Virus record (IMG/VR): IMGVR_UViG_3300045988_024436
Coordinates: 1 to 22,928 of that record
Length of the DNA stretch: 22,928 nucleotides
Source: a virus
Taxonomy: Duplodnaviria > Heunggongvirae > Uroviricota > Caudoviricetes
Strand: one strand, 5' to 3'
Part shown: one piece after another, positions 5,208 through 19,517 of the stretch
Position numbering within the stretch: the stretch's first letter is position 1
How the letters are laid out: each line of letters starts with the position of its first letter
The notes under the pieces: model-generated
Seen by the model: the letters and a program-made list of their open reading frames with translations, nothing else
What the model was told of the DNA's origin: nothing
Database searches by the model: none
Program-made: the position numbers and the translations under genes

Positions 5208-6018
5208 GGTTGAAGTTATCACTCCTGATAAACCTGAAATTTTTCAGATAGCAGAAATTCTGGGTATTGATCCAGATGCTGTTCTTGGAAAGCTGGTTCG
5301 TATATGGGCATGGGCTGACCAGCAAACAATAGACGGTAACGCTGGCAGCGTTACAAAAGGAGTACTTGATAGACTCGCTTTTATTACAGGATTTGCTGAC
5401 GCCCTCATTAGCGTCGGATGGCTTGCTTATCATGACGGCAAACTAATTCTTCCAAACTTTGAGCGACATAATGGAGAATCATCGAAAAAACGTGCACTTA
5501 CGAATAGAAGAGTGGCAGAGCATCGAAAACGAGTAACGCAAAAAGTAACGCCAACAGCGTTACAAAAGGAGTTACCAGAGGAAGAGGAAGAGGAAGATAT
5601 ATATAAAACCCCACACATAGCGCACGTGCGCGAGGGTGCTCCGACCAGTGAAGCGAACAGTACGCCGTTGCAGGTGGCAGAACCTGAATTTCTGGATGGC
5701 CTGAGTGAACCCATCGGGAAATTTCCGATGACAGATGGCTGGCTACCGTCGCCAGATTTTCGGCGGCGTGCTGCGCTGTGGGGAACGGCCCTGCCGGAAC
5801 CGGAATTTACACCTGCTGAACTTGCTGCATTCCGGGATTACTGGATGGCTGAGGGCAAAGTGTTCACGCAGGTTCAGTGGGAACAAAAATTCGCCAGGCA
5901 CGTAAATCATATCAGGGGAAAATCAAAAAATGCCGGGAAAAGCGATGAGCTTGACTGGAATAACACTGACTGGATAGAAGGGGTGTGGGATGAAATCAAC
6001 TCCAGAACTTCTCAATGA
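5188..6018 (+). CDS. replication initiation protein with DnaT-like C-terminal domain (O-like position)
   Basis: ATG at 5188 with SD AGAGGGG. C-terminus FPMTDGWLPSPDFRRRAALWGTALPEPEFTPAELAAFRDYWMAEGKVFTQVQWEQKFARHV matches recalled E. coli DnaT. Acidic linker EEEEEED. Confidence 0.7.
   Translation: MASSWIKVEVITPDKPEIFQIAEILGIDPDAVLGKLVRIWAWADQQTIDGNAGSVTKGVLDRLAFITGFADALISVGWLAYHDGKLILPNFERHNGESSKKRALTNRRVAEHRKRVTQKVTPTALQKELPEEEEEEDIYKTPHIAHVREGAPTSEANSTPLQVAEPEFLDGLSEPIGKFPMTDGWLPSPDFRRRAALWGTALPEPEFTPAELAAFRDYWMAEGKVFTQVQWEQKFARHVNHIRGKSKNAGKSDELDWNNTDWIEGVWDEINSRTSQ
5330..5612 (+). other. putative replication origin inside the initiator gene (iteron-like palindromes plus AT-rich tract)
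   Basis: GTAACGC-N5-GCGTTAC at 5336-5354 and 5545-5563, extra GTAACGC at 5533-5539, GTTAC at 5571-5575. 18-bp direct repeat CAGCGTTACAAAAGGAGT at 5346-5363 and 5555-5572. (GAGGAA)3 at 5578-5595, then ATATATATAAAA. Confidence 0.4.
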
Positions 6019-10117: not shown

Positions 10118-10391
10118 CCTGCAACTTGCCGTTAAAGGTGAATACTTCGATGCCATGATTCGCGGAGAGAAAACGGAAGAGTATCGCCTGTGTAATGACT
10201 ACTGGAATAAGCGAATTATGTTCCGCGAGTATGACCGCCTGATTATCACAAAGGGATATCCGAAGCGCGACGATTCCAGCCGCAGAATTGACGTCCCGTA
10301 TGACGGATATGAAATCAAGACAATCACACATCCGCACTTCGGCGATAAACCGGTAAAGGTGTTCGCTATAAAGGTGAATATTGATGGCTAA
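10110..10391 (+). CDS. ASCH-like domain protein
   Basis: GTG start with SD AAGGAGGAAGG; EYFDAMIRGEKTEEYRL fits the ASCH G-x-K-T-x-E-x-R motif. Confidence 0.45.
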   Translation: MANLQLAVKGEYFDAMIRGEKTEEYRLCNDYWNKRIMFREYDRLIITKGYPKRDDSSRRIDVPYDGYEIKTITHPHFGDKPVKVFAIKVNIDG

Positions 10392-10722
10392 ATCAGCAGC
10401 AGAGCGCAAAGCCGCTCAGAGAGCCAGACAAGCTGCATCTGGTGTGCGTAAGCTGGAAATTGTGCTTGATGCTCAGGAAATTGAAATGCTGGAGCGTAAC
10501 TGTGCCACGCGTCGCCCCGGGCGTGCGCCTTACGAATTTGGTGAGTATATAGCGTTACTGATCCGCCAGGATGATGCACGCGTGCACGGGCGTATAAAAT
10601 CGATCAGCAGAAAACGTTGCGGTAAGTGCGGCGAGAGAGTTCCTGTGAATTCATGCCCGTGTGATGGTGACTCGCAATGCTGGGTGACTAAAGGCTGGCA
10701 TGAAACGAAATTAATAGTGTGA
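10384..10722 (+). CDS. Cys-rich protein, possible zinc-finger regulator immediately upstream of the late operon
   Basis: ATG at 10384 with SD AAGGTG; C-terminal CGKCGERVPVNSCPCDGDSQC; stop TGA overlaps the palindrome GTGACATGTCAC. Confidence 0.4.
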   Translation: MAKSAAERKAAQRARQAASGVRKLEIVLDAQEIEMLERNCATRRPGRAPYEFGEYIALLIRQDDARVHGRIKSISRKRCGKCGERVPVNSCPCDGDSQCWVTKGWHETKLIV

Positions 10723-10771
10723 CATGTCACGAGTAGATTATGCATGATGAATTTGATGGGGTTTGAATACT

Positions 10772-10797
10772 GCCGCCAACTATGGCGGCTTTATTTT
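10772..10797 (+). terminator. rho-independent terminator between accessory genes and terminase
   Basis: GCCGCC-AACTAT-GGCGGC followed by TTTATTTT. Confidence 0.55.
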
Positions 10798-10803
10798 GCA
10801 TGG

Positions 10804-10841
10804 TACTATTACCACAACGGTAACTATTACCACGGTGGTTA
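10804..10841 (+). promoter_or_regulatory. operator-like palindromes and direct repeat upstream of the terminase small subunit
   Basis: TTACCacaacGGTAA at 10809-10823 and TTACCacggtGGTTA at 10827-10841; direct repeat ACTATTACCAC at 10806-10816 and 10824-10834. Confidence 0.4.
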
Positions 10842-11296
10842 TGATGCCTGCTGAACCTAAAGCCTATAAACGCAAATCAACGCAATTTAAGCCACTAACA
10901 GCAATGCAGGAGGCTTATTGCCAGTCATACATCAAAACGCCTGAAAACCAGACTCAGGCAGCGATTAACGCAGGATTCTCCCCAAATACAGCGGCAGTTA
11001 AAGCCAGTGTCATGATGCGCGATGAACGCATTCAAAAACGGATTGCCGAGTTGATGGAGGAGCGCAACAAACGAATGCGCGTCAGTGCTGATTACGTTCT
11101 CATGCGCTTGGTGGAGATCGACCAGATGGACGTGATCGACATCCTCAACGACGATGGTAGCCTTAAGCCAATCCGAGAGTGGCCGAAAATCTGGCGCACT
11201 ACGCTTAGCGGCTTTGATCTGTCATCGACCATCATGAACATGAACGAGGATTCGATAGAGACAATCATCAAAAAATTAAATGGCCTGACAAGGTGA
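10841..11296 (+). CDS. terminase small subunit, probably C-terminally truncated by a frame change
   Basis: Track ORF starts at 10763 but its first 26 codons are the terminator and operator DNA, so ATG at 10841 or 10844 is preferred. A protein-like frame ([20 protein letters not shown]...[10 protein letters not shown]) continues from 11290 to a TGA at 11431-11433 that overlaps the GTG of the large subunit. Confidence 0.55.
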
Positions 11297-11429
11297 AGAA
11301 CCTCGAACTGATTGGTAAGCACGTCGACGTCAACGCATTCAAAGAACGCCTGGATGTTAATGTGAATGTGACAATTGCTGATCGCATAGCGGCAGCCAGG
11401 AAGAGACTGAAGAACGTCAGTGGCAATCA

Positions 11430-12908
11430 GTGACAGATACAGCGTTATCTCCTGAAGAGCAGTTAATCGAGATATTGCAGGGTTCACTCACGATCCGCTT
11501 GGCTATGCCCTCTATGGGTTCCCCGTGGGGGGGAAGGAGGGTACTGAACTGGCGACATGCCACCGGTCCACGTCAGTGGCAGGCCGATGCGTTCCGAGAG
11601 ATACGTGATCACCTGCAGAATCCAGAGACGCGATATCAGCCGCTTATGCTGGCACGTGCTTCTGGTCACGGTATTGGTAAATCCGCATTCATCTCAATGC
11701 TGATCAACTGGGGCATGTCCACTTGCGAGGATTGTAAGGTCGTGGTGACCGCCAACACCGACAACCAGCTACGAACGAAGACCTGGCCGGAAATTATCAA
11801 GTGGTCAAACCTTGCTATCACGAAAGACTGGTTTACCTGTACCGCTACCGCGATGTACAGCAATGACCCTGGGCACGACAAGCGGTGGCGAGCTGACGCA
11901 ATCCCCTGGTCTGAGCACAACACTGAGGCATTCGCCGGACTACACAACGAGCGTAAACGCATCATCGTGGTATTTGATGAAGCGTCGAACATTGCGGATC
12001 TGGTGTGGGAAGTTGCCGAGGGTGCGCTAACGGACGAAGACACTGAGATTATCTGGGTGGCTTTCGGAAACCCTACACGTAACACCGGGCGTTTCCGTGA
12101 ATGTTTCCGCAAATACAAACACCGCTGGAAAACTGCGCAGATTGACAGCAGGACGGTGGAAGGCACCAACAAACAGCAGTTGCAGAAATGGGTTGATGAC
12201 TACGGGGAAGATAGCGACTTCGTTAAAATCCGTGTGCGTGGCATATTCCCTGATGCATCTGAATTGCAGTTTATCCCTACCGGTCTTACTGACGAGGCAA
12301 TGAAACGGGTGGTAACTGCTGCGCAGGTGGCACATGCTCCGGTGATAATCGGCGTTGACCCGGCATACTCCGGCGTTGATGACGCTGTGATATACCTGCG
12401 GCAGGGGCTACACAGTAAGGTGCTGTGGACTGGCAACAAGACTACCGACGATCTGATTATGGCGAAGCGTATCGCTGACTTTGAAGACCAGTATCAGGCT
12501 GACGCGGTGTTCATCGACTTCGGTTACGGAACCGGTTTGAAGTCAATCGGTGACGGCTGGGGTCGTACATGGCAACTTGTTCCGTTCGGTGGCGCGTCTA
12601 CTGACCAGCAGATGCTCAACAAGCGTGGGGAGATGTTCAACTCATGCAAGACATGGCTGAGGCTGGGCGGCATGCTTGATGACCAGGAAACAGCGGACGA
12701 CCTGTCGGCGGCAGAGTACAAAGTTCGAGTGGACGGTAAAATCGTTATCGAACCGAAGGAAGATATCAAGGAGCGGCTTGGGCGTTCTCCTGGTAAAGGC
12801 GATGCGCTACTGCTGACGTTTGCGTTCCCGGTGTCAAAGCGCCTGCGAATTCCCGGGCAGCAGAACCAGCAAGGCAAGGCCATTACAGATTACGATCCCT
12901 ATGCTTAA
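11430..12908 (+). CDS. terminase large subunit
   Basis: 492 aa; ATPase-like N-terminal half and nuclease-like C-terminal half ([11 protein letters not shown]...DAV); GTG start overlaps the upstream stop. Confidence 0.8.
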
Positions 12909-12958
12909 TCCGTTAGCGGGGATAATGACGGAGATATCCTCTGGTGAGGATAAAACAA

Positions 12959-12978
12959 AGCCAGCTCATCGGCTGGCT
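12959..12978. terminator. hairpin terminator after terminase, stronger on the minus strand
   Basis: AGCCAGC-TCATCG-GCTGGCT; T-rich on the minus side (TTTGTTTTAT) and TGTTTGT on the plus side. Confidence 0.5.
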
Positions 12979-13184
12979 GTTTGTGACATGTCACGGTGTT
13001 AGAAGGTTATTTTATCGAATGCGGCGTTGATTGCCTTGGCGTCCTGCTCAGCACCAACCACATCAAGTAAAGATCTTTTACTAAGCACTTCAGCCAGGCA
13101 TTGTAACTTCATTGTTGTATAAGGTTTTTCGCGCATTGTAATTCATCATCACTTTTTTCTTTGGCGTATACAGCGCGAGAAATA

Positions 13185-13427
13185 TCAAACTACATTGCCT
13201 TTTTCCATTTCAGTTTTCTGCGCTGAAATCCAGTCATGGCAAGTAACTCCTATTCCATGGTCATCGCTAAGCGTTAACCCGGCAAGTCGCTCACCTGGAA
13301 TTGCTTCACAAAGCATTTCATTTCCTGCAAAAACACCATAAAAAATTGAGTCATCACCCTGAACAATGCGTACATATTTGCACGGCCATTCATTTAGATA
13401 TTTAGCTAGCATGTCGGCTGTTTTCAT
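13185..13427 (-). CDS. hypothetical 80-aa protein in minus-strand insert between terminase and head genes
   Basis: ATG at 13425-13427 with SD AAGGTGAG; opposite strand to the flanking late genes; lies between two minus-strand terminators. Confidence 0.4.
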   Translation of the reverse strand: MKTADMLAKYLNEWPCKYVRIVQGDDSIFYGVFAGNEMLCEAIPGERLAGLTLSDDHGIGVTCHDWISAQKTEMEKGNVV

Positions 13428-14350: not shown

Positions 14351-16028
14351 ATGGCGGAAACAACTAAAGAGCGATTGAACAAACAGTTCGCACAACTTGA
14401 AAGCGAGCGTCAGTCGTTCGAGCCGCACTGGCGCGAGTTGAGTGATTACATCAACCCGCGTGGTTCCCGCTTTCTGACTTCTGAGGTTAACCGTAACGAT
14501 CGACGCAATACACGCATTATTGATTCGACCGGGACTATGGCGGCGCGCACTCTCGCCAGCGGCATGATGTCAGGCATCACAGCCCCGCGCGTCCGTGGTT
14601 TCGCCTGGCTAGCCAGATCCTGAAATGATGGATTATGGCCCTGTTAAGTTGTGGCTTGAGGCGGTGCAGAACCGCATGAACGATATGTTCAATAAGTCGA
14701 ATCTCTATCAGTCGCTGCCGCAGTTATACGGAAGCCTCGGCACATACAGCACTGGTGCAATGGCAGTGCTGGAGGATGACGAGGACATCATTCGCACAAT
14801 GCCATTCCCGATAGGCAGTTACTACCTGGCTAACTCACCTCGTGGCAGTGTGGACACCTGTTTTCGCAAGTTCTCTATGACTGTTCGTCAGCTTGTTCAG
14901 GAGTTCGGGCTAAATAACGTCAGCGAATCCGTAAAAAGCATGTGGGAAAGCGGAACCTACGAGAAGTGGATTGAAGTGATGCATTCGGTTTACCCGAACA
15001 TTGACCGCGATACATCGAAGCTGGATAGCAAGAACAAGCCATTCAAATCGGTTTATTACGAGGTTGGTGGCGATAACGACAAGTTGTTGCGTGAGTCCGG
15101 ATTCGATGAGTTTCCAATTATGGCTCCGCGCTGGGAAGTTAACGGCGAAGATGTTTATGGATCATCATGCCCGGGTATGCTGGCGCTTGGACCTGTTAAG
15201 GCATTGCAGCTTCTCCAGAAGCGCAAGTCGCAGTTGATTGATAAAGCCACCAATCCGCCGATGGTTGCTCCGACTTCCCTCAAGAATCAGCGTGCCTCCC
15301 TTCTTCCTGGCGACATCACGTATATCGATCAGATTACTGGTCAGGATGGTTTCAGGCCTGCTTATCTGGTTAACCCCAGTACAGCAGATTTGGTGGCAGA
15401 CATTCAGGACACCCGTCAAATCATTAACAGCGCCTACTTTGTCGATCTGTTCATGATGTTGCAGAACATCAATACCCGCTCGATGCCTGTTGAAGCGGTG
15501 ATCGAAATGAAAGAAGAAAAACTTCTGATGTTGGGGCCGGTTCTGGAGCGTCTGAACGACGAATGTCTTAATCCTCTCATTGACCGCGCTTTCTCGATGA
15601 TGGTGCGTAAAAACATGCTGCCGCCACCGCCTGACGCGATGGAAGGTATGCCCCTGAAGGTCGAATACATTTCCGTCATGGCTCAGGCGCAGAAGTCTAT
15701 CGGCCTGTCCAGTCTGGCGTCTACGGTCAACTTCATTGGTCAACTTGCGCAAGCGAAACCAGAAGCTCTCGACAAACTCAACGTTGATCAGGCGATCGAT
15801 GCATTCGCTGATATGTCCGGAGTGTCTCCAACCGTCATTGTTCCGCAGGAACAGGTTGAGCAGGCTCGCCAGCAACGGGCACAGCAACAACAGCAGCAAC
15901 AAATGATGGCGATGGGGATGGCGGCGGCACAGGGTGCCAAGACGCTAAGCGAAGCTAAAACTTCGGATCCGAGTGTTTTGTCAGCTATGGCGAATGCAGT
16001 TAGTGGTCAGGGTGGGCAATCACAATGA
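14351..16028 (+). pseudogene. portal (head-to-tail connector) protein, apparently split by two nearby frame changes (or sequencing errors)
   Basis: ORFs 14351-14623 (90 aa) and 14625-16028 (467 aa) are in different frames. The third frame across the junction encodes SPARPWFRLA (14581-14610), which resembles the P-x3-W-x-RL stretch of T7 gp8; a C4 run lies at 14583-14586. Poly-Q near the C-terminus. Confidence 0.65.
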
Positions 16029-16321
16029 CAGATTACGAAGACGATCAACTGAAAGAAGAAAACGCCCGTAAGCAACGTGACATGGCACAGCGTGAAATTG
16101 ATGACATTTGCTTTGTCATGAGCAGTGAACAGGGGCGTCGCGTTGTCTGGTCGGTGCTGGAGAAAGGCCGTGTGTTTTCCGCTATCTCACCGATGGACGC
16201 TATGGCAATGGCATTTAATGAGGGGCAACGCAATCTGGCGCTGGAACTGTTTCAGCGCGTTATGGCGCATTGCCCTGAACAGTATTTGAAGATGGCCAAA
16301 GAGGCCAGTGAACAGGAGTGA
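16025..16321 (+). CDS. hypothetical head-assembly protein
   Basis: 98 aa; ATG overlaps the portal stop (ATGA). Confidence 0.45.
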   Translation: MTDYEDDQLKEENARKQRDMAQREIDDICFVMSSEQGRRVVWSVLEKGRVFSAISPMDAMAMAFNEGQRNLALELFQRVMAHCPEQYLKMAKEASEQE

Positions 16322-18911: not shown

Positions 18912-19517
18912 ATGGCCTCTGTAGTAGAGATCTGCAATCGTGCGCTGTCCAATATTGGCAACAGCCGCAGCATTAACAGCCTGACGGAAGCCAGCAAGGA
19001 AGCGGGGGAATGTTCGCTGCACTTTGAGGCCTGCCGTGATGCTGTGCTTTCTGATTTTGACTGGAACTTTGCTACCAAACGCGTGGCGCTTGCAGATACG
19101 AGCAATCCACCGCCTGACTGGGAATATGCGTACCAGTACCCGTCAGATTGTCTGCGCATTACTGAAATTATGCTTCCTGGTGTACGCAATCCAACAGCAG
19201 CAATGCGCGTTCAGTACGAAGTTGGTGCAGACACCAACGGAACAGGAAAGTTGATCTACACAGACCAGCCGCAGGCATGGCTCAAGTATGTCTCTCGCGT
19301 TTCAGATGTGAACATGTTTGATGCCATTTTTATGGAGGCGTTGGCCTGGCGTCTTGCGGCAGCTATTAACATGGCGCTGACTGGGAATGCAGACCTCGGT
19401 ACGTTTGCCCTCAATATGTACAATCGCGTGATTCTTAGTGCTGGCTCGCATAGCCAGAATGAATCACAGGAACCACTGCCACCGGTTGACGAGTTTACCA
19501 TTGCGAGGTTGTCCTGA
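18912..19517 (+). CDS. tail tubular protein A (T7 gp11-like)
   Basis: 201 aa; N-terminus ICNRALSNIGNSRSINSLTEASKEAG follows the pattern of the recalled T7 gp11 N-terminus; size and position before a roughly 800-aa protein fit. Confidence 0.55.
   Translation: MASVVEICNRALSNIGNSRSINSLTEASKEAGECSLHFEACRDAVLSDFDWNFATKRVALADTSNPPPDWEYAYQYPSDCLRITEIMLPGVRNPTAAMRVQYEVGADTNGTGKLIYTDQPQAWLKYVSRVSDVNMFDAIFMEALAWRLAAAINMALTGNADLGTFALNMYNRVILSAGSHSQNESQEPLPPVDEFTIARLS

What the first reader, a model, noticed from the sequence alone, without database searches (positions are those of the whole stretch)
10718..12995. Identical 14-bp element TGTGACATGTCACG brackets the terminase module, each copy next to a terminator hairpin
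Copies at 10718-10731 and 12982-12995 contain the perfect 12-bp palindrome GTGACATGTCAC. The first overlaps the stop of the Cys-rich gene and lies 40 bp before the terminator at 10772-10797. The second lies 4 bp after the hairpin at 12959-12978. Two identical 14-mers are unlikely by chance in 23 kb. They could be a regulator site, packaging-related sites, or module-exchange junctions.
Basis: seen in the sequence. Interest (0 to 1): 0.45.

Follow-up and report, generated by a model that had tools for sequence, protein, structure and literature searches.

The report
Phage regulator's palindromic DNA site
The repeated palindrome is real and is most likely the DNA docking site of the small, uncharacterised ribbon-helix-helix protein encoded right next to it, a protein-plus-site pair that recurs in four unrelated kinds of temperate phage but whose job is still unknown.

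Summary
TGTGACATGTCACG lies at 10718-10731 and 12982-12995; the first copy contains the TGA stop of the Cys-rich gene.

A repeated 14-mer alone is not remarkable in 23 kb: the window holds four such repeats, and shuffles give about two. Comparison makes it significant. The window is an epsilon15-like (Uetakevirus) E. coli prophage. The 12-bp core GTGACATGTCAC is intact at the same three places in phages only ~77% identical, while the flanks diverge. The third place lies outside the window, at the end of the structural operon.

The general motif is YGTGAC-N2-GTCACR. It occurs 1-3 times per genome (0.01-0.06 expected) in epsilon15-like, ZF40/lambdoid, N15-like, P2-like and Vibrio phages. All of these encode a homologue of the adjacent 112-aa protein (phrog_536). 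In 112 of 130 distinct homologues the motif sits at the gene's own stop codon.

A packaging role is not supported. Mosaic junctions do lie within 7 bp of both copies. The half-sites equal those of matS, with one fewer central base.

The parts
10718..10731 (.). Copy A of the palindrome (core 10719-10730). It contains the TGA stop codon of the adjacent regulator gene.
   Evidence: The core is perfect in 75 of 79 close relatives scored. It is also perfect at the homologous place in epsilon15, Tyrion, PAT1 and BUCT711.
12982..12995 (.). Copy B of the palindrome (core 12983-12994). It lies 4 nt from the stop of the minus-strand p03-like gene and 4 nt from that gene's terminator hairpin.
   Evidence: The place is conserved in epsilon15 (2142), Tyrion (2702) and PAT1 (26302, centre AG). 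It is absent where the cassette has been replaced.
16076..16089 (-). Imperfect third copy (core GTGACATGGCAC on the plus strand) inside the Bbp19-like gene. Probably not functional.
   Evidence: It is absent from epsilon15. It drifts among close relatives: 38 have one mismatch and 32 have two.
10384..10722 (+). Gene for the 112-aa candidate binder. It has an N-terminal basic helix, a ribbon-helix-helix core and a C-terminal Cys-rich (zinc) tail. Family phrog_536; equivalent to epsilon15 gp49, phiV10 p55 and N15 gp46.
10740..10766 (+). Eight-codon remnant of a 70-aa gene (phrog_1541) that sits between copy A and the terminator in some relatives.
10772..10797 (+). Intrinsic terminator at the end of the early-right operon, downstream of copy A.
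   Evidence: Annotated as a terminator in the epsilon15 record at 39646-39672.
12959..12978 (-). Terminator hairpin between terL and copy B. It scores as a terminator for the minus-strand p03-like transcript.
12999..13427 (-). p03-like cargo gene (phrog_4846), split in the window by 1-bp indels. Its 3' untranslated region holds copy B.
10844..12908 (+). Small and large terminase genes bracketed by copies A and B. The small-subunit reading frame is broken by indels near 11270-11433.

Best explanation
The palindrome is a protein-binding DNA site with consensus YGTGAC-N2-GTCACR. It is most likely the cognate operator of the ribbon-helix-helix plus zinc-tail protein encoded immediately upstream of copy A (10384-10722).

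Proposed mechanism:
- A dimer of this delayed-early protein would sit on each palindrome.
- The two-stranded beta-ribbon would read the centre of the site.
- The conserved basic N-terminal helices and/or the zinc tails would read the invariant GTGAC half-sites.

Placement of the sites:
- In epsilon15-like phages every strong site lies at the 3' end of a transcription unit, between a stop codon and an intrinsic terminator.
- Copy A ends the early-right operon, ahead of the terminase genes.
- Copy B ends the minus-strand moron that converges on terL.
- Copy C, outside the window, ends the structural operon that converges on the antirepressor module.

I infer that the bound protein controls how much transcription crosses these boundaries. 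It could do so as a roadblock or insulator, or by modulating read-through of the adjacent terminator.

What is shown: the site is under selection, it travels with the gene, and the protein has a DNA-binding fold.
What is inferred: that this protein is the binder, and what binding does to transcription.
For: 1. Selection on the site.
- The core is perfect at three homologous places in epsilon15, Tyrion, PAT1, BUCT711 and PAS61, although these genomes are only ~77-82% identical to the window.
- The flanking DNA does not align.
- Counts are 3 per genome against 0.02-0.06 in 300 dinucleotide shuffles.

2. Co-occurrence with the gene in unrelated phage types.
- ZF40 (myovirus, protein 65% identical) has 3 perfect copies, one of them 3 nt after the gene's stop.
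- In the N15 clade (36% identical), 46 of 46 loci have GTGACTGGTCAC or one variant on the stop codon. Two further conserved copies lie upstream.
- In the Yersinia P2-like clade (42% identical), 50 of 53 loci have GTGACGCGTCAC or GTGACGTGTCAC at the stop. That is 56 sites in 876 kb against 0.8 expected.
- Vibrio K308 has 3 copies.
- Overall, 112 of 130 distinct homologues have the motif within -12 to +45 nt of their stop.
- Only the first 4 bases of the core overlap coding sequence, and the C-terminal residues differ between lineages. Coding constraint therefore cannot explain the conservation.
- Of 120 genome stretches carrying the exact 14-mer, the 5 that encode a homologue are all Enterobacterales, and 4 of those 5 have it at the stop.
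- The K-12 Rac prophage was not seen to encode a homologue and has no copy even at one mismatch.

3. DNA level rather than RNA level.
- Half-sites and their Y/R flanks are invariant and symmetric, while the central dinucleotide varies between lineages (AT, GC, TG/CA, AC). This is the pattern of a dimer operator. A hairpin would show the opposite pattern.
- The RNA hairpin is worth only -2.7 kcal/mol and is lost in two of four context folds.

4. The protein is a DNA binder.
- The AlphaFold model has pLDDT 92.7.

5. The centre of the site tracks the putative beta-strand.
- AT goes with RKLEIVLD, GC with NEIRARLE, and TG with TRRDWVLE.
- The basic helix AERKxAQRxRQ is conserved in all lineages.

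6. Boundary placement.
- The stop-palindrome-terminator order holds on the transcribed strand for copies B and C.
- It also holds in other phages (L149, L187, L104, N15 28550).
- A terminator-like hairpin lies within 60 nt of 49 of 129 distinct site contexts, against 26 for random positions.
Against: - No binding experiment exists, and none was found in the literature.
- The co-occurrence is partly inherited rather than independent. There are roughly six to eight independent lineages, not 112.
- An operator at the 3' end of its own gene is atypical for ribbon-helix-helix repressors, which usually autoregulate at their promoter.
- A 12-14 bp site is long for one ribbon-helix-helix dimer, so the extra contacts are conjecture.
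- In lambdoid/ZF40-like phages two copies lie inside coding regions (a PL-operon gene and the cII-like gene), not at unit ends.
- P2-like phages have short arrays in a long non-coding stretch. One boundary function may therefore not cover all cases.
- Copy B is dispensable: it is lost with its cassette in about 13 of 80 relatives.
- The terminator enrichment may only reflect intergenic placement. The control positions were mostly coding.
- Exact copies also occur without a nearby homologue in Providencia and as a tandem array in Sorangium.
Confidence: 0.55

Rival explanations
1. The palindrome is a binding site for a host protein shared by Enterobacterales and Vibrionales. Candidates are MatP, acting on a matS-like site, or another nucleoid or transcription factor. 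The phage would use it to organise or regulate its DNA.
For: - The half-sites GTGAC/GTCAC are identical to matS, GTGAC[AG]N[CT]GTCAC (consensus as quoted in PMC3603311).
- Every phage found with the motif infects hosts of the clade that has MatP. That MatP is restricted to this clade is from my own knowledge.
- Exact copies lie next to host genes in Providencia with no homologue within 8 kb.
Against: - The spacer is 2 bp, not 3, in every phage copy but one.
- True matS is reported absent from 500 Escherichia and Salmonella prophages and is thought to be counter-selected. A site that MatP bound would be expected to be avoided too.
- The centre differs between phage lineages that share one host: N15 has TG and epsilon15-like phages have AT, both in E. 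coli. It follows the phage protein lineage instead.
- The motif sits on the stop codon of the phage gene in unrelated phages, which a host-factor site does not explain.
Confidence: 0.1
2. The element works in RNA. It would be a small hairpin in the 3' untranslated region, just 5' of the terminator. It could be bound by the adjacent protein through its arginine-rich N-terminal helix, or act alone. It would tune termination, mRNA stability or translation of the next gene.
For: - On the transcribed strand the order is always stop codon, palindrome, terminator for copies A, B and C.
- In N15, L014, L160 and similar loci the palindrome abuts the ribosome-binding site of the next gene.
- The N-terminal helix is arginine- and lysine-rich.
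- One natural variant, phiV10 copy A (GTGACATGTTAC), would keep a G-U pair.
Against: - The hairpin has only 4-5 pairs, is worth -2.7 kcal/mol, and is not kept in two of four context folds.
- The would-be stem never covaries, while the would-be loop centre varies. This is the reverse of a structured RNA.
- The outer flanks are Y...R, which is symmetric in DNA, but give C-A mismatches on the transcribed strand at PAS61 copy C and at Vibrio sites.
- In N15 the asymmetric centre reads CUGG in two transcripts and CCAG in the third.
- The protein fold is that of DNA binders.
Confidence: 0.12
3. The palindrome has no binding function. It would be a conserved boundary or linker sequence that persists because recombination between mosaic phages repeatedly uses it as a junction, carrying it along with neighbouring cassettes.
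For: - Homology breaks lie within 1-7 bp of copies A and B.
- At least seven different cargo sequences follow copy B. Presence or absence of a 70-aa gene begins right after copy A.
- Copy B comes and goes with its cassette.
Against: - A 12-bp homology is too short to direct homologous exchange on its own.
- The half-sites stay exact, while the centre changes, across lineages whose proteins are only 31-42% identical and whose flanks are unrelated. This points to selection on a symmetric recognition sequence.
- The copies inside coding regions of ZF40-like phages are not obviously at module junctions; I did not map junctions there.
Confidence: 0.08
4. The two copies are packaging signals (pac or terminase recognition sites) that frame the terminase genes.
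For: - Copy A is 113 bp upstream of the small terminase start.
- A Vibrio K308 copy is 31 bp upstream of its small terminase gene.
- Contigs of three induced phages break near the imperfect third copy at about 16.1 kb.
Against: - Copy B belongs to the neighbouring cassette and is dispensable.
- Copy C is about 20 kb away, at the end of the structural operon.
- N15 (a cos phage), ZF40 and the P2-like phages have the motif far from their terminase genes.
- The start of the phiV10 record inside copy A is only an annotator's convention: it is the base after the last stop codon.
Confidence: 0.03

Closest known systems
Ribbon-helix-helix repressors and their palindromic operators (P22 Arc/Mnt, CopG, PutA, AmrZ, and the antitoxins ParD and TacA)
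   Same: - It is a small protein encoded by a mobile element.
- Its candidate site is a short dyad-symmetric sequence.
   Different: - There is no sequence-level membership: nothing in Pfam or NCBIfam, and nothing significant against PDB sequences.
- The protein has an extra conserved basic N-terminal helix and a Cys-rich C-terminal tail.
- The site lies at the 3' end of the gene and at the ends of other transcription units, not in the protein's own promoter.
- No conserved toxin partner follows the gene.
MatP / matS (organiser of the Ter macrodomain in E. coli)
   Same: - The half-sites GTGAC and GTCAC are identical (matS as quoted in PMC3603311).
- A few dispersed sites are spread over kilobases, and the host range matches the MatP clade.
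   Different: - The phage site has a 2-bp centre (12 bp) and matS has a 3-bp centre (13 bp).
- The MatP domains PF06303 and PF17414 were not detected. Profile comparison with MatP is not significant (E 0.46 and 0.17).
- The phage protein lacks MatP's four-helix bundle and coiled coil and has a zinc tail instead.
- True matS is avoided by prophages.
Lambda Q with its binding site at PR', followed by terminator tR'
   Same: - The regulator gene is the last gene of the early-right operon.
- Its candidate DNA site lies directly downstream of the gene.
- A terminator follows, and then the late (terminase) genes.
- Having the site next to the gene fits a protein that acts preferentially in cis. Cis-action of lambda Q is from my own knowledge.
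   Different: - There is no homology to Q proteins.
- The promoter-like match that uses GTGACA as a -35 element is weak (9 of 12) and no better than chance. It is also not conserved in other lineages.
- Copies B and C have no downstream late genes.
- ZF40 and N15 carry this family in addition to a Q-like gene.
DksA/TraR-type C4 zinc finger proteins of plasmids and phages
   Same: A diverse family profile gives its three best PDB sequence hits to TraR and YbiI over the last helix and the CxxCG..P..C motif (E about 0.03).
   Different: - The hits are below significance.
- The spacing of the fourth cysteine differs.
- This is a lead only.

Membership tests
Ribbon-helix-helix DNA-binding proteins | Strand-helix-helix fold that pairs into a dimer with a two-stranded ribbon | tested here: met
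   [not shown]
Ribbon-helix-helix DNA-binding proteins | Sequence match to a curated family model (Pfam RHH_1, RHH_5 and similar) | tested here: not met
   No family reaches its threshold. There are only faint hits: RHH_5 in 2 of 63 members (E 0.013) and RHH_1 in 1 member. The window protein itself gives none.
Repressor/operator pair (autoregulated ribbon-helix-helix type) | Dyad-symmetric site bound by the protein | not testable with these tools
   Symmetry of the site is shown. Binding is only inferred, from co-occurrence and from the centre of the site tracking the strand sequence.
Repressor/operator pair (autoregulated ribbon-helix-helix type) | Operator overlaps the promoter of the regulator's own operon | tested here: not met
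   The site overlaps the stop codon, not the start region, in 112 of 130 homologues. No copy lies in the immunity or promoter region of the window.
MatP/matS | 13-bp site GTGAC-RNY-GTCAC | tested here: not met
   All window copies, and nearly all related copies, have a 2-bp centre. The single 3-bp example is Vibrio K308 at 19491.
MatP/matS | Protein homologous to MatP (PF06303 plus PF17414) | tested here: not met
   No Pfam hit. hhalign E 0.46 and 0.17. Only a fold-level match through the shared ribbon-helix-helix. The MatP query sequence was confirmed to be E. coli MatP.
Lambda N / nut-type RNA antitermination site | Stable boxB-like RNA hairpin with a conserved loop and a covarying stem | tested here: not met
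   The hairpin is worth -2.7 kcal/mol and is unstable in context. The stem is invariant and the loop centre varies.
Lambda Q / qut-type late antitermination module | Binding site embedded in a constitutive promoter that is followed by a terminator | tested here: inconclusive
   The gene-site-terminator-late genes order is present at copy A. The only promoter-like match is 9 of 12 and within chance expectation.
Intrinsic terminator | G+C-rich stem of at least 5 pairs followed by a T-run | tested here: not met
   The palindrome itself was not called as a terminator. The calls are the neighbouring hairpins at 10772-10789 (+) and 12959-12978 (-).
Type II toxin-antitoxin (ribbon-helix-helix antitoxin) | Conserved toxin gene immediately downstream in the same operon | tested here: not met
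   The downstream neighbour differs by lineage: nothing or a 70-aa phrog_1541 gene in epsilon15-like phages, NinB in ZF40, gene 47 in N15, and small ORFs in P2-like phages. No PADLOC hit.
pac / terminase recognition site | Virion DNA ends or terminase binding at the site | not testable with these tools
   Only indirect evidence is available, and it argues against: copy B is dispensable and linked to its cassette, and the motif is distant from the terminase genes in other phage types.

The most novel reading that the evidence does not exclude
The phrog_536 protein and its YGTGAC-N2-GTCACR sites form a previously unrecognised control system shared by temperate phages of the MatP/Dam clade of gamma-proteobacteria.

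In this reading a DNA-bound ribbon-helix-helix protein is loaded in cis at the end of its own gene and at other operon ends. It then acts on elongating or terminating RNA polymerase, possibly through a TraR/DksA-like zinc module, or it bridges sites about 2.2 kb apart as MatP does.

That would make it a DNA-site-directed termination or insulation factor rather than a promoter-bound repressor. Its recognition sequence would deliberately sit one base away from the host's matS.
Probability: 0.15. Interest if true: 0.75.

Novelty: new variant of a known kind. Interest (0 to 1): 0.5.

Why it matters
- The terminase region containing the regulator gene and both sites is common. At least 80% of the 2.8-kb region is present in 502 of 5,426 complete E. 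coli genomes.
- The protein family occurs in epsilon15-like, lambdoid, N15-like and P2-like phages. Yet the protein is annotated as hypothetical almost everywhere, and its site is not annotated even in the richly annotated epsilon15 record.
- Assigning a cognate site gives a directly testable handle on how epsilon15-like phages, which have no known late regulator, separate early from late transcription.
- It may also show how phages insulate convergent operons.
- The near-identity of the site to matS, a motif that prophages otherwise avoid, raises a concrete question about how phages stay clear of, or borrow from, host chromosome-organising signals.
- In practice, the motif is a useful marker for operon and moron boundaries when annotating these prophages.

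Tried and rejected
1. Physical genome end. The phiV10 record starts inside copy A. This is only because the depositor began the record after the last stop codon, so I rejected it.

2. Prophage repressor operator. The epsilon15 record annotates repressor sites of the form ATTACC-N5-GGTAAT. The window equivalent is at 10805-10835, which is a different element.

3. Known host motifs recalled from memory (CRP, FNR, LacI/GalR, SlmA). None fits both the half-site and the spacing. These were not tool-tested.

4. MatP homology.
- hhalign was not significant in two attempts.
- My last large protein search returned only near-identical E. coli MatP sequences, so I could not build a diverse MatP profile.

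5. First structure model. It had a shallow alignment and pLDDT 68.8. Foldseek against the PDB gave nothing, and the PDB sequence search gave nothing. Only after collecting diverse representatives did the model become confident.

6. Domain fusions as functional hints. The few longer family members have no Pfam domains.

7. Defence-system libraries gave nothing.

8. Literature. Searches for the sequence, the phage group and matS-like sites in phages found no description of this element. Kropinski's epsilon15 genome paper is not in the searchable library.

9. Promoter hypothesis, with GTGACA as the -35 element. The match is weak and is not conserved across lineages (and inspection).

10. Genome-wide scan for the exact 14-mer. 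It cannot give a frequency for the E. coli chromosome.
Full report
**1. What is in the sequence**

TGTGACATGTCACG occurs exactly at 10718-10731 and 12982-12995. A one-mismatch copy lies at 16076-16089 on the minus strand. The core GTGACATGTCAC is a perfect 12-bp palindrome. The TGA stop codon of ORF 10384-10722 is bases 10720-10722, inside copy A.

The consensus scan calls a plus-strand terminator at 10772-10789. It calls the hairpin at 12959-12978 as a terminator on the minus strand only. Copy B therefore lies in the 3' untranslated region of the minus-strand gene that ends at 12999. It is 4 nt from the stop and 4 nt from that gene's terminator.

A repeated 14-mer is not rare in itself. The window has four independent repeats of 14 bp or more, and shuffled sequences average about two. 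The statistical weight comes from two of the window's six perfect 12-bp palindromes being identical, and above all from comparison with other phages.

**2. Context**

The window is 97-98% identical to E. coli Uetakevirus phages and prophages (PAS61, ZX5, TL-2011b, phiV10). It is about 77-82% identical to Salmonella epsilon15 and Enterobacter Tyrion.

The local gene order is:
- the end of the early-right operon, whose last gene is the 112-aa Cys-rich protein (epsilon15 gp49, phiV10 p55);
- copy A;
- a terminator;
- a repressor operator of the ATTACC-N5-GGTAA type, which the epsilon15 record annotates;
- terS and terL;
- a hairpin;
- copy B;
- a minus-strand cargo gene.

**3. The site is conserved where the surrounding DNA is not**

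The perfect core is found at the same three places in PAS61, epsilon15, Tyrion, PAT1 and (for A and C) BUCT711:
- A lies on the gp49 stop.
- B lies beside the stop of the p03-like gene.
- C lies at the end of the last gene of the structural operon, 1-16 nt before its terminator. C is about 20 kb downstream and outside the window.

Alignments show the palindrome as an island of identity in otherwise diverged flanks. Each genome has 3 copies of GTGAC-N2-GTCAC, against 0.02-0.06 in 300 dinucleotide-preserving shuffles.

Conservation among 80 close relatives:
- Copy A has a perfect core in 75 of the 79 scored.
- Copy B is present in most, but is lost whenever the cassette between terL and 13439 is replaced, which happens in about 13 loci.
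- In Tyrion an extra gene lies between terL and copy B, and copy B stays next to the p03-like stop and hairpin.
- Copy B is therefore part of the cargo gene's 3' end. It is not a border of the terminase module.
- The imperfect third copy is absent from epsilon15 and drifts among close relatives. I regard it as non-functional.

**4. The site travels with the adjacent gene**

The 112-aa protein belongs to phrog_536. It has no Pfam, NCBIfam or PDB sequence match. Homologues exist in quite different temperate phages. Each of them carries the same half-sites:

- **ZF40** (Pectobacterium myovirus, 65% identical). Three perfect copies, one of them 3 nt after the gene's stop.
- **N15 and 45 relatives** (36% identical). 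GTGACTGGTCAC lies on the stop codon in 46 of 46 loci, with one centre variant. A second copy lies inside repA. A third, flipped, lies just upstream of a promoter-like sequence (read by eye) ahead of the antirepressor operon.
- **Yersinia P2-like phages** (42% identical). GTGACGCGTCAC, or rarely GTGACGTGTCAC, lies at the stop in 50 of 53 loci. That is 56 sites in 876 kb against 0.8 expected.
- **Vibrio K308** (31% identical). Three copies.

Across everything fetched, 112 of 130 distinct homologues have the motif within -12 to +45 nt of their stop. Only 'G TGA' of the core is coding and the C-terminal residues differ between lineages, so coding constraint does not explain this.

Controls:
- The K-12 Rac prophage, whose annotation shows no obvious homologue (not searched), has no copy even at one mismatch.
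- Of 120 bacterial genome stretches with the exact 14-mer, 115 are chance-level hits in unrelated phyla or lack a homologue. The 5 with a homologue are Enterobacterales, and 4 of those have the motif at the stop.
- Of 120 viral stretches with TGTGACATGTCACA, 32 encode a homologue within the short stored stretch.

**5. DNA or RNA**

The consensus is YGTGAC-N2-GTCACR. The half-sites and their purine/pyrimidine flanks are invariant and symmetric. The central dinucleotide differs between lineages (AT, GC, TG/CA, AC/GT, occasionally AG or CT). This is the signature of a dimeric DNA-binding protein. A functional hairpin would show a covarying stem and a conserved loop.

As RNA the element has 4-5 pairs and is worth -2.7 kcal/mol. 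It is displaced in two of four context folds. In N15 the asymmetric centre has no fixed orientation relative to transcription. I therefore favour a DNA site.

**6. The protein**

- A first model from a shallow alignment was poor (pLDDT 68.8). Foldseek found nothing.
- An exhaustive profile search gave about 200 clusters at 50% identity, nearly all stand-alone proteins of 105-135 aa.
- With 63 diverse members the model reached pLDDT 92.7.
- The family adds a conserved basic N-terminal helix (AERKxAQRxRQ; R8 and R13 nearly invariant) and a Cys-rich tail (C79, C82 and C99 invariant).
- The putative ribbon strand differs between lineages in step with the centre of the site: RKLEIVLD with AT, NEIRARLE with GC, TRRDWVLE with TG. 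This fits a ribbon that reads the dyad centre. With only three or four lineages it is suggestive, not proof.

**7. Where the sites lie, and what that suggests**

In epsilon15-like phages the order on the transcribed strand is always stop codon, palindrome, intrinsic terminator:
- copy A on the plus strand, with a variable 27-213 nt spacer that may hold a 70-aa gene;
- copy B on the minus strand;
- copy C on the plus strand.

B and C are at convergent junctions: terL against the cargo gene, and the structural operon against the antirepressor module. The same stop-site-terminator order recurs in other phages (L104, L149, L187). In N15 the third copy sits between the end of the repA operon and the antirepressor operon. 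Terminator-like hairpins lie within 60 nt of 49 of 129 distinct contexts, against about 26 for random positions. That control does not correct for intergenic placement.

Other arrangements exist:
- ZF40-like lambdoid phages carry one copy inside a PL-operon gene (phrog_2479) and one in the 3' part of the cII-like gene. The two are 2.1-2.5 kb apart and flank cI.
- Some P2-like phages have arrays of two or three perfect and imperfect copies about 36 bp apart in a long non-coding stretch.

The common thread I can defend is this. A delayed-early DNA-binding protein has its sites inside or at the ends of transcription units rather than at promoters. The simplest mechanism is control of transcription passing those points, by roadblock or insulation or by modulating terminator read-through. 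This step is inference.

**8. Rivals**

- **Host factor.** The half-sites equal those of matS (GTGAC[AG]N[CT]GTCAC, quoted in PMC3603311). But the spacer is one base shorter, true matS is absent from 500 Escherichia and Salmonella prophages, and the centre follows the phage lineage rather than the host.
- **Pure recombination linker.** Mosaic breakpoints do lie at 10732/10746 and 13001, and at least seven cargo sequences follow copy B. But exact half-sites persist across lineages with unrelated flanks.
- **Packaging.** Not supported (section 3, and the N15, ZF40 and P2-like data).
- **Chance.** Excluded by the comparative data.

**9. Comparison with known systems, and novelty**

The element works like a ribbon-helix-helix regulator with a palindromic operator. 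It is not a member of any curated family. It departs from the usual arrangement in where the operator lies (on its own stop codon and at operon ends) and in its accessory helix and zinc tail.

It resembles MatP/matS in half-site and fold but fails both defining tests, site length and protein homology. I found no description of the element in the searchable literature or in the detailed epsilon15 annotation.

I class it as a new variant of a known kind. The 2.8-kb region holding the gene and both sites is frequent: at least 80% of it is present in 502 of 5,426 complete E. coli genomes.

**10. Verdict**

'Regulator site bound by the Cys-rich protein' is the best reading. 'Junction' is true descriptively. 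'Packaging' is unsupported.
- Confidence that the palindrome is a selected protein-binding DNA site: about 0.8.
- Confidence that the adjacent protein is the binder: about 0.65.
- Confidence that it acts on transcription at unit boundaries: about 0.3-0.4.

Noticed in passing
window 11270-11554, 13113-13191, 14581-14612, 1334-2361: There are clusters of single-base indels relative to PAS61. They split the small terminase, the p03-like gene, the portal gene and RecT into fragments. This means either low-quality sequence or a decaying prophage.
   Followed up: partly
window 16063-16209: GenBank contigs from three independently induced phages (Phi05_1387, Phi05_2388, Phi05_1999 'B') all end or begin in this 150-bp stretch. 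It contains the imperfect third copy. Possible causes are a packaging end, a coverage drop or an assembly artefact.
   Followed up: no
window 10805-10835: ACTATTACCAC occurs twice, forming ATTACC-N5-GGTAA just upstream of the small terminase start. This matches the 'repressor' binding site annotated at 12-27 of the epsilon15 record. The late operon therefore seems to be directly under prophage repressor control.
   Followed up: partly
window 10740-10766; L014 6357-6569: An eight-codon ORF after copy A is the fused start and end of a 70-aa gene (phrog_1541). That gene is present in about a quarter of close relatives. The deletion begins right next to the palindrome.
   Followed up: yes
window 5346-5363 and 5555-5572: The 18-bp direct repeat CAGCGTTACAAAAGGAGT occurs twice, 209 bp apart, inside the DnaT-like replication gene. 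It may be an iteron or origin element.
   Followed up: no
L134 2532 and 4755; L136, L155, L158; ZF40 (L086) 5125 and 7622: In lambdoid prophages two perfect copies flank the cI gene, 2.1-2.5 kb apart. One lies inside a PL-operon gene (phrog_2479) and one in the 3' part of the cII-like gene. These positions recall nutL and nutR.
   Followed up: partly
L175 7170-7260; L116, L144, L182, L202, L114; L087 8468-8520: P2-like phages carry arrays of two or three perfect and imperfect copies about 33-37 bp apart in a long non-coding stretch near the homologue. One variant, GTGCCATGTCAC, is the same as the window's third copy.
   Followed up: no
L373 about 1845-1925 (Sorangium cellulosum So ce56); L377, L384, L395 (Providencia burhodogranariea): Sorangium has four tandem copies of the 14-mer at a 22-bp period. 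One Providencia genome has three exact copies, two of them in AT-rich intergenic DNA beside host genes. No phrog_536 homologue lies within 8 kb of any of these. Unexplained.
   Followed up: partly
L361 6553, L397 539 (Morganella and Proteus prophages): Related podovirus prophages carry the exact 14-mer between two head genes, directly after the gene that follows the major capsid protein gene (assigned by gene order). This adds a fourth kind of position within this phage type.
   Followed up: no
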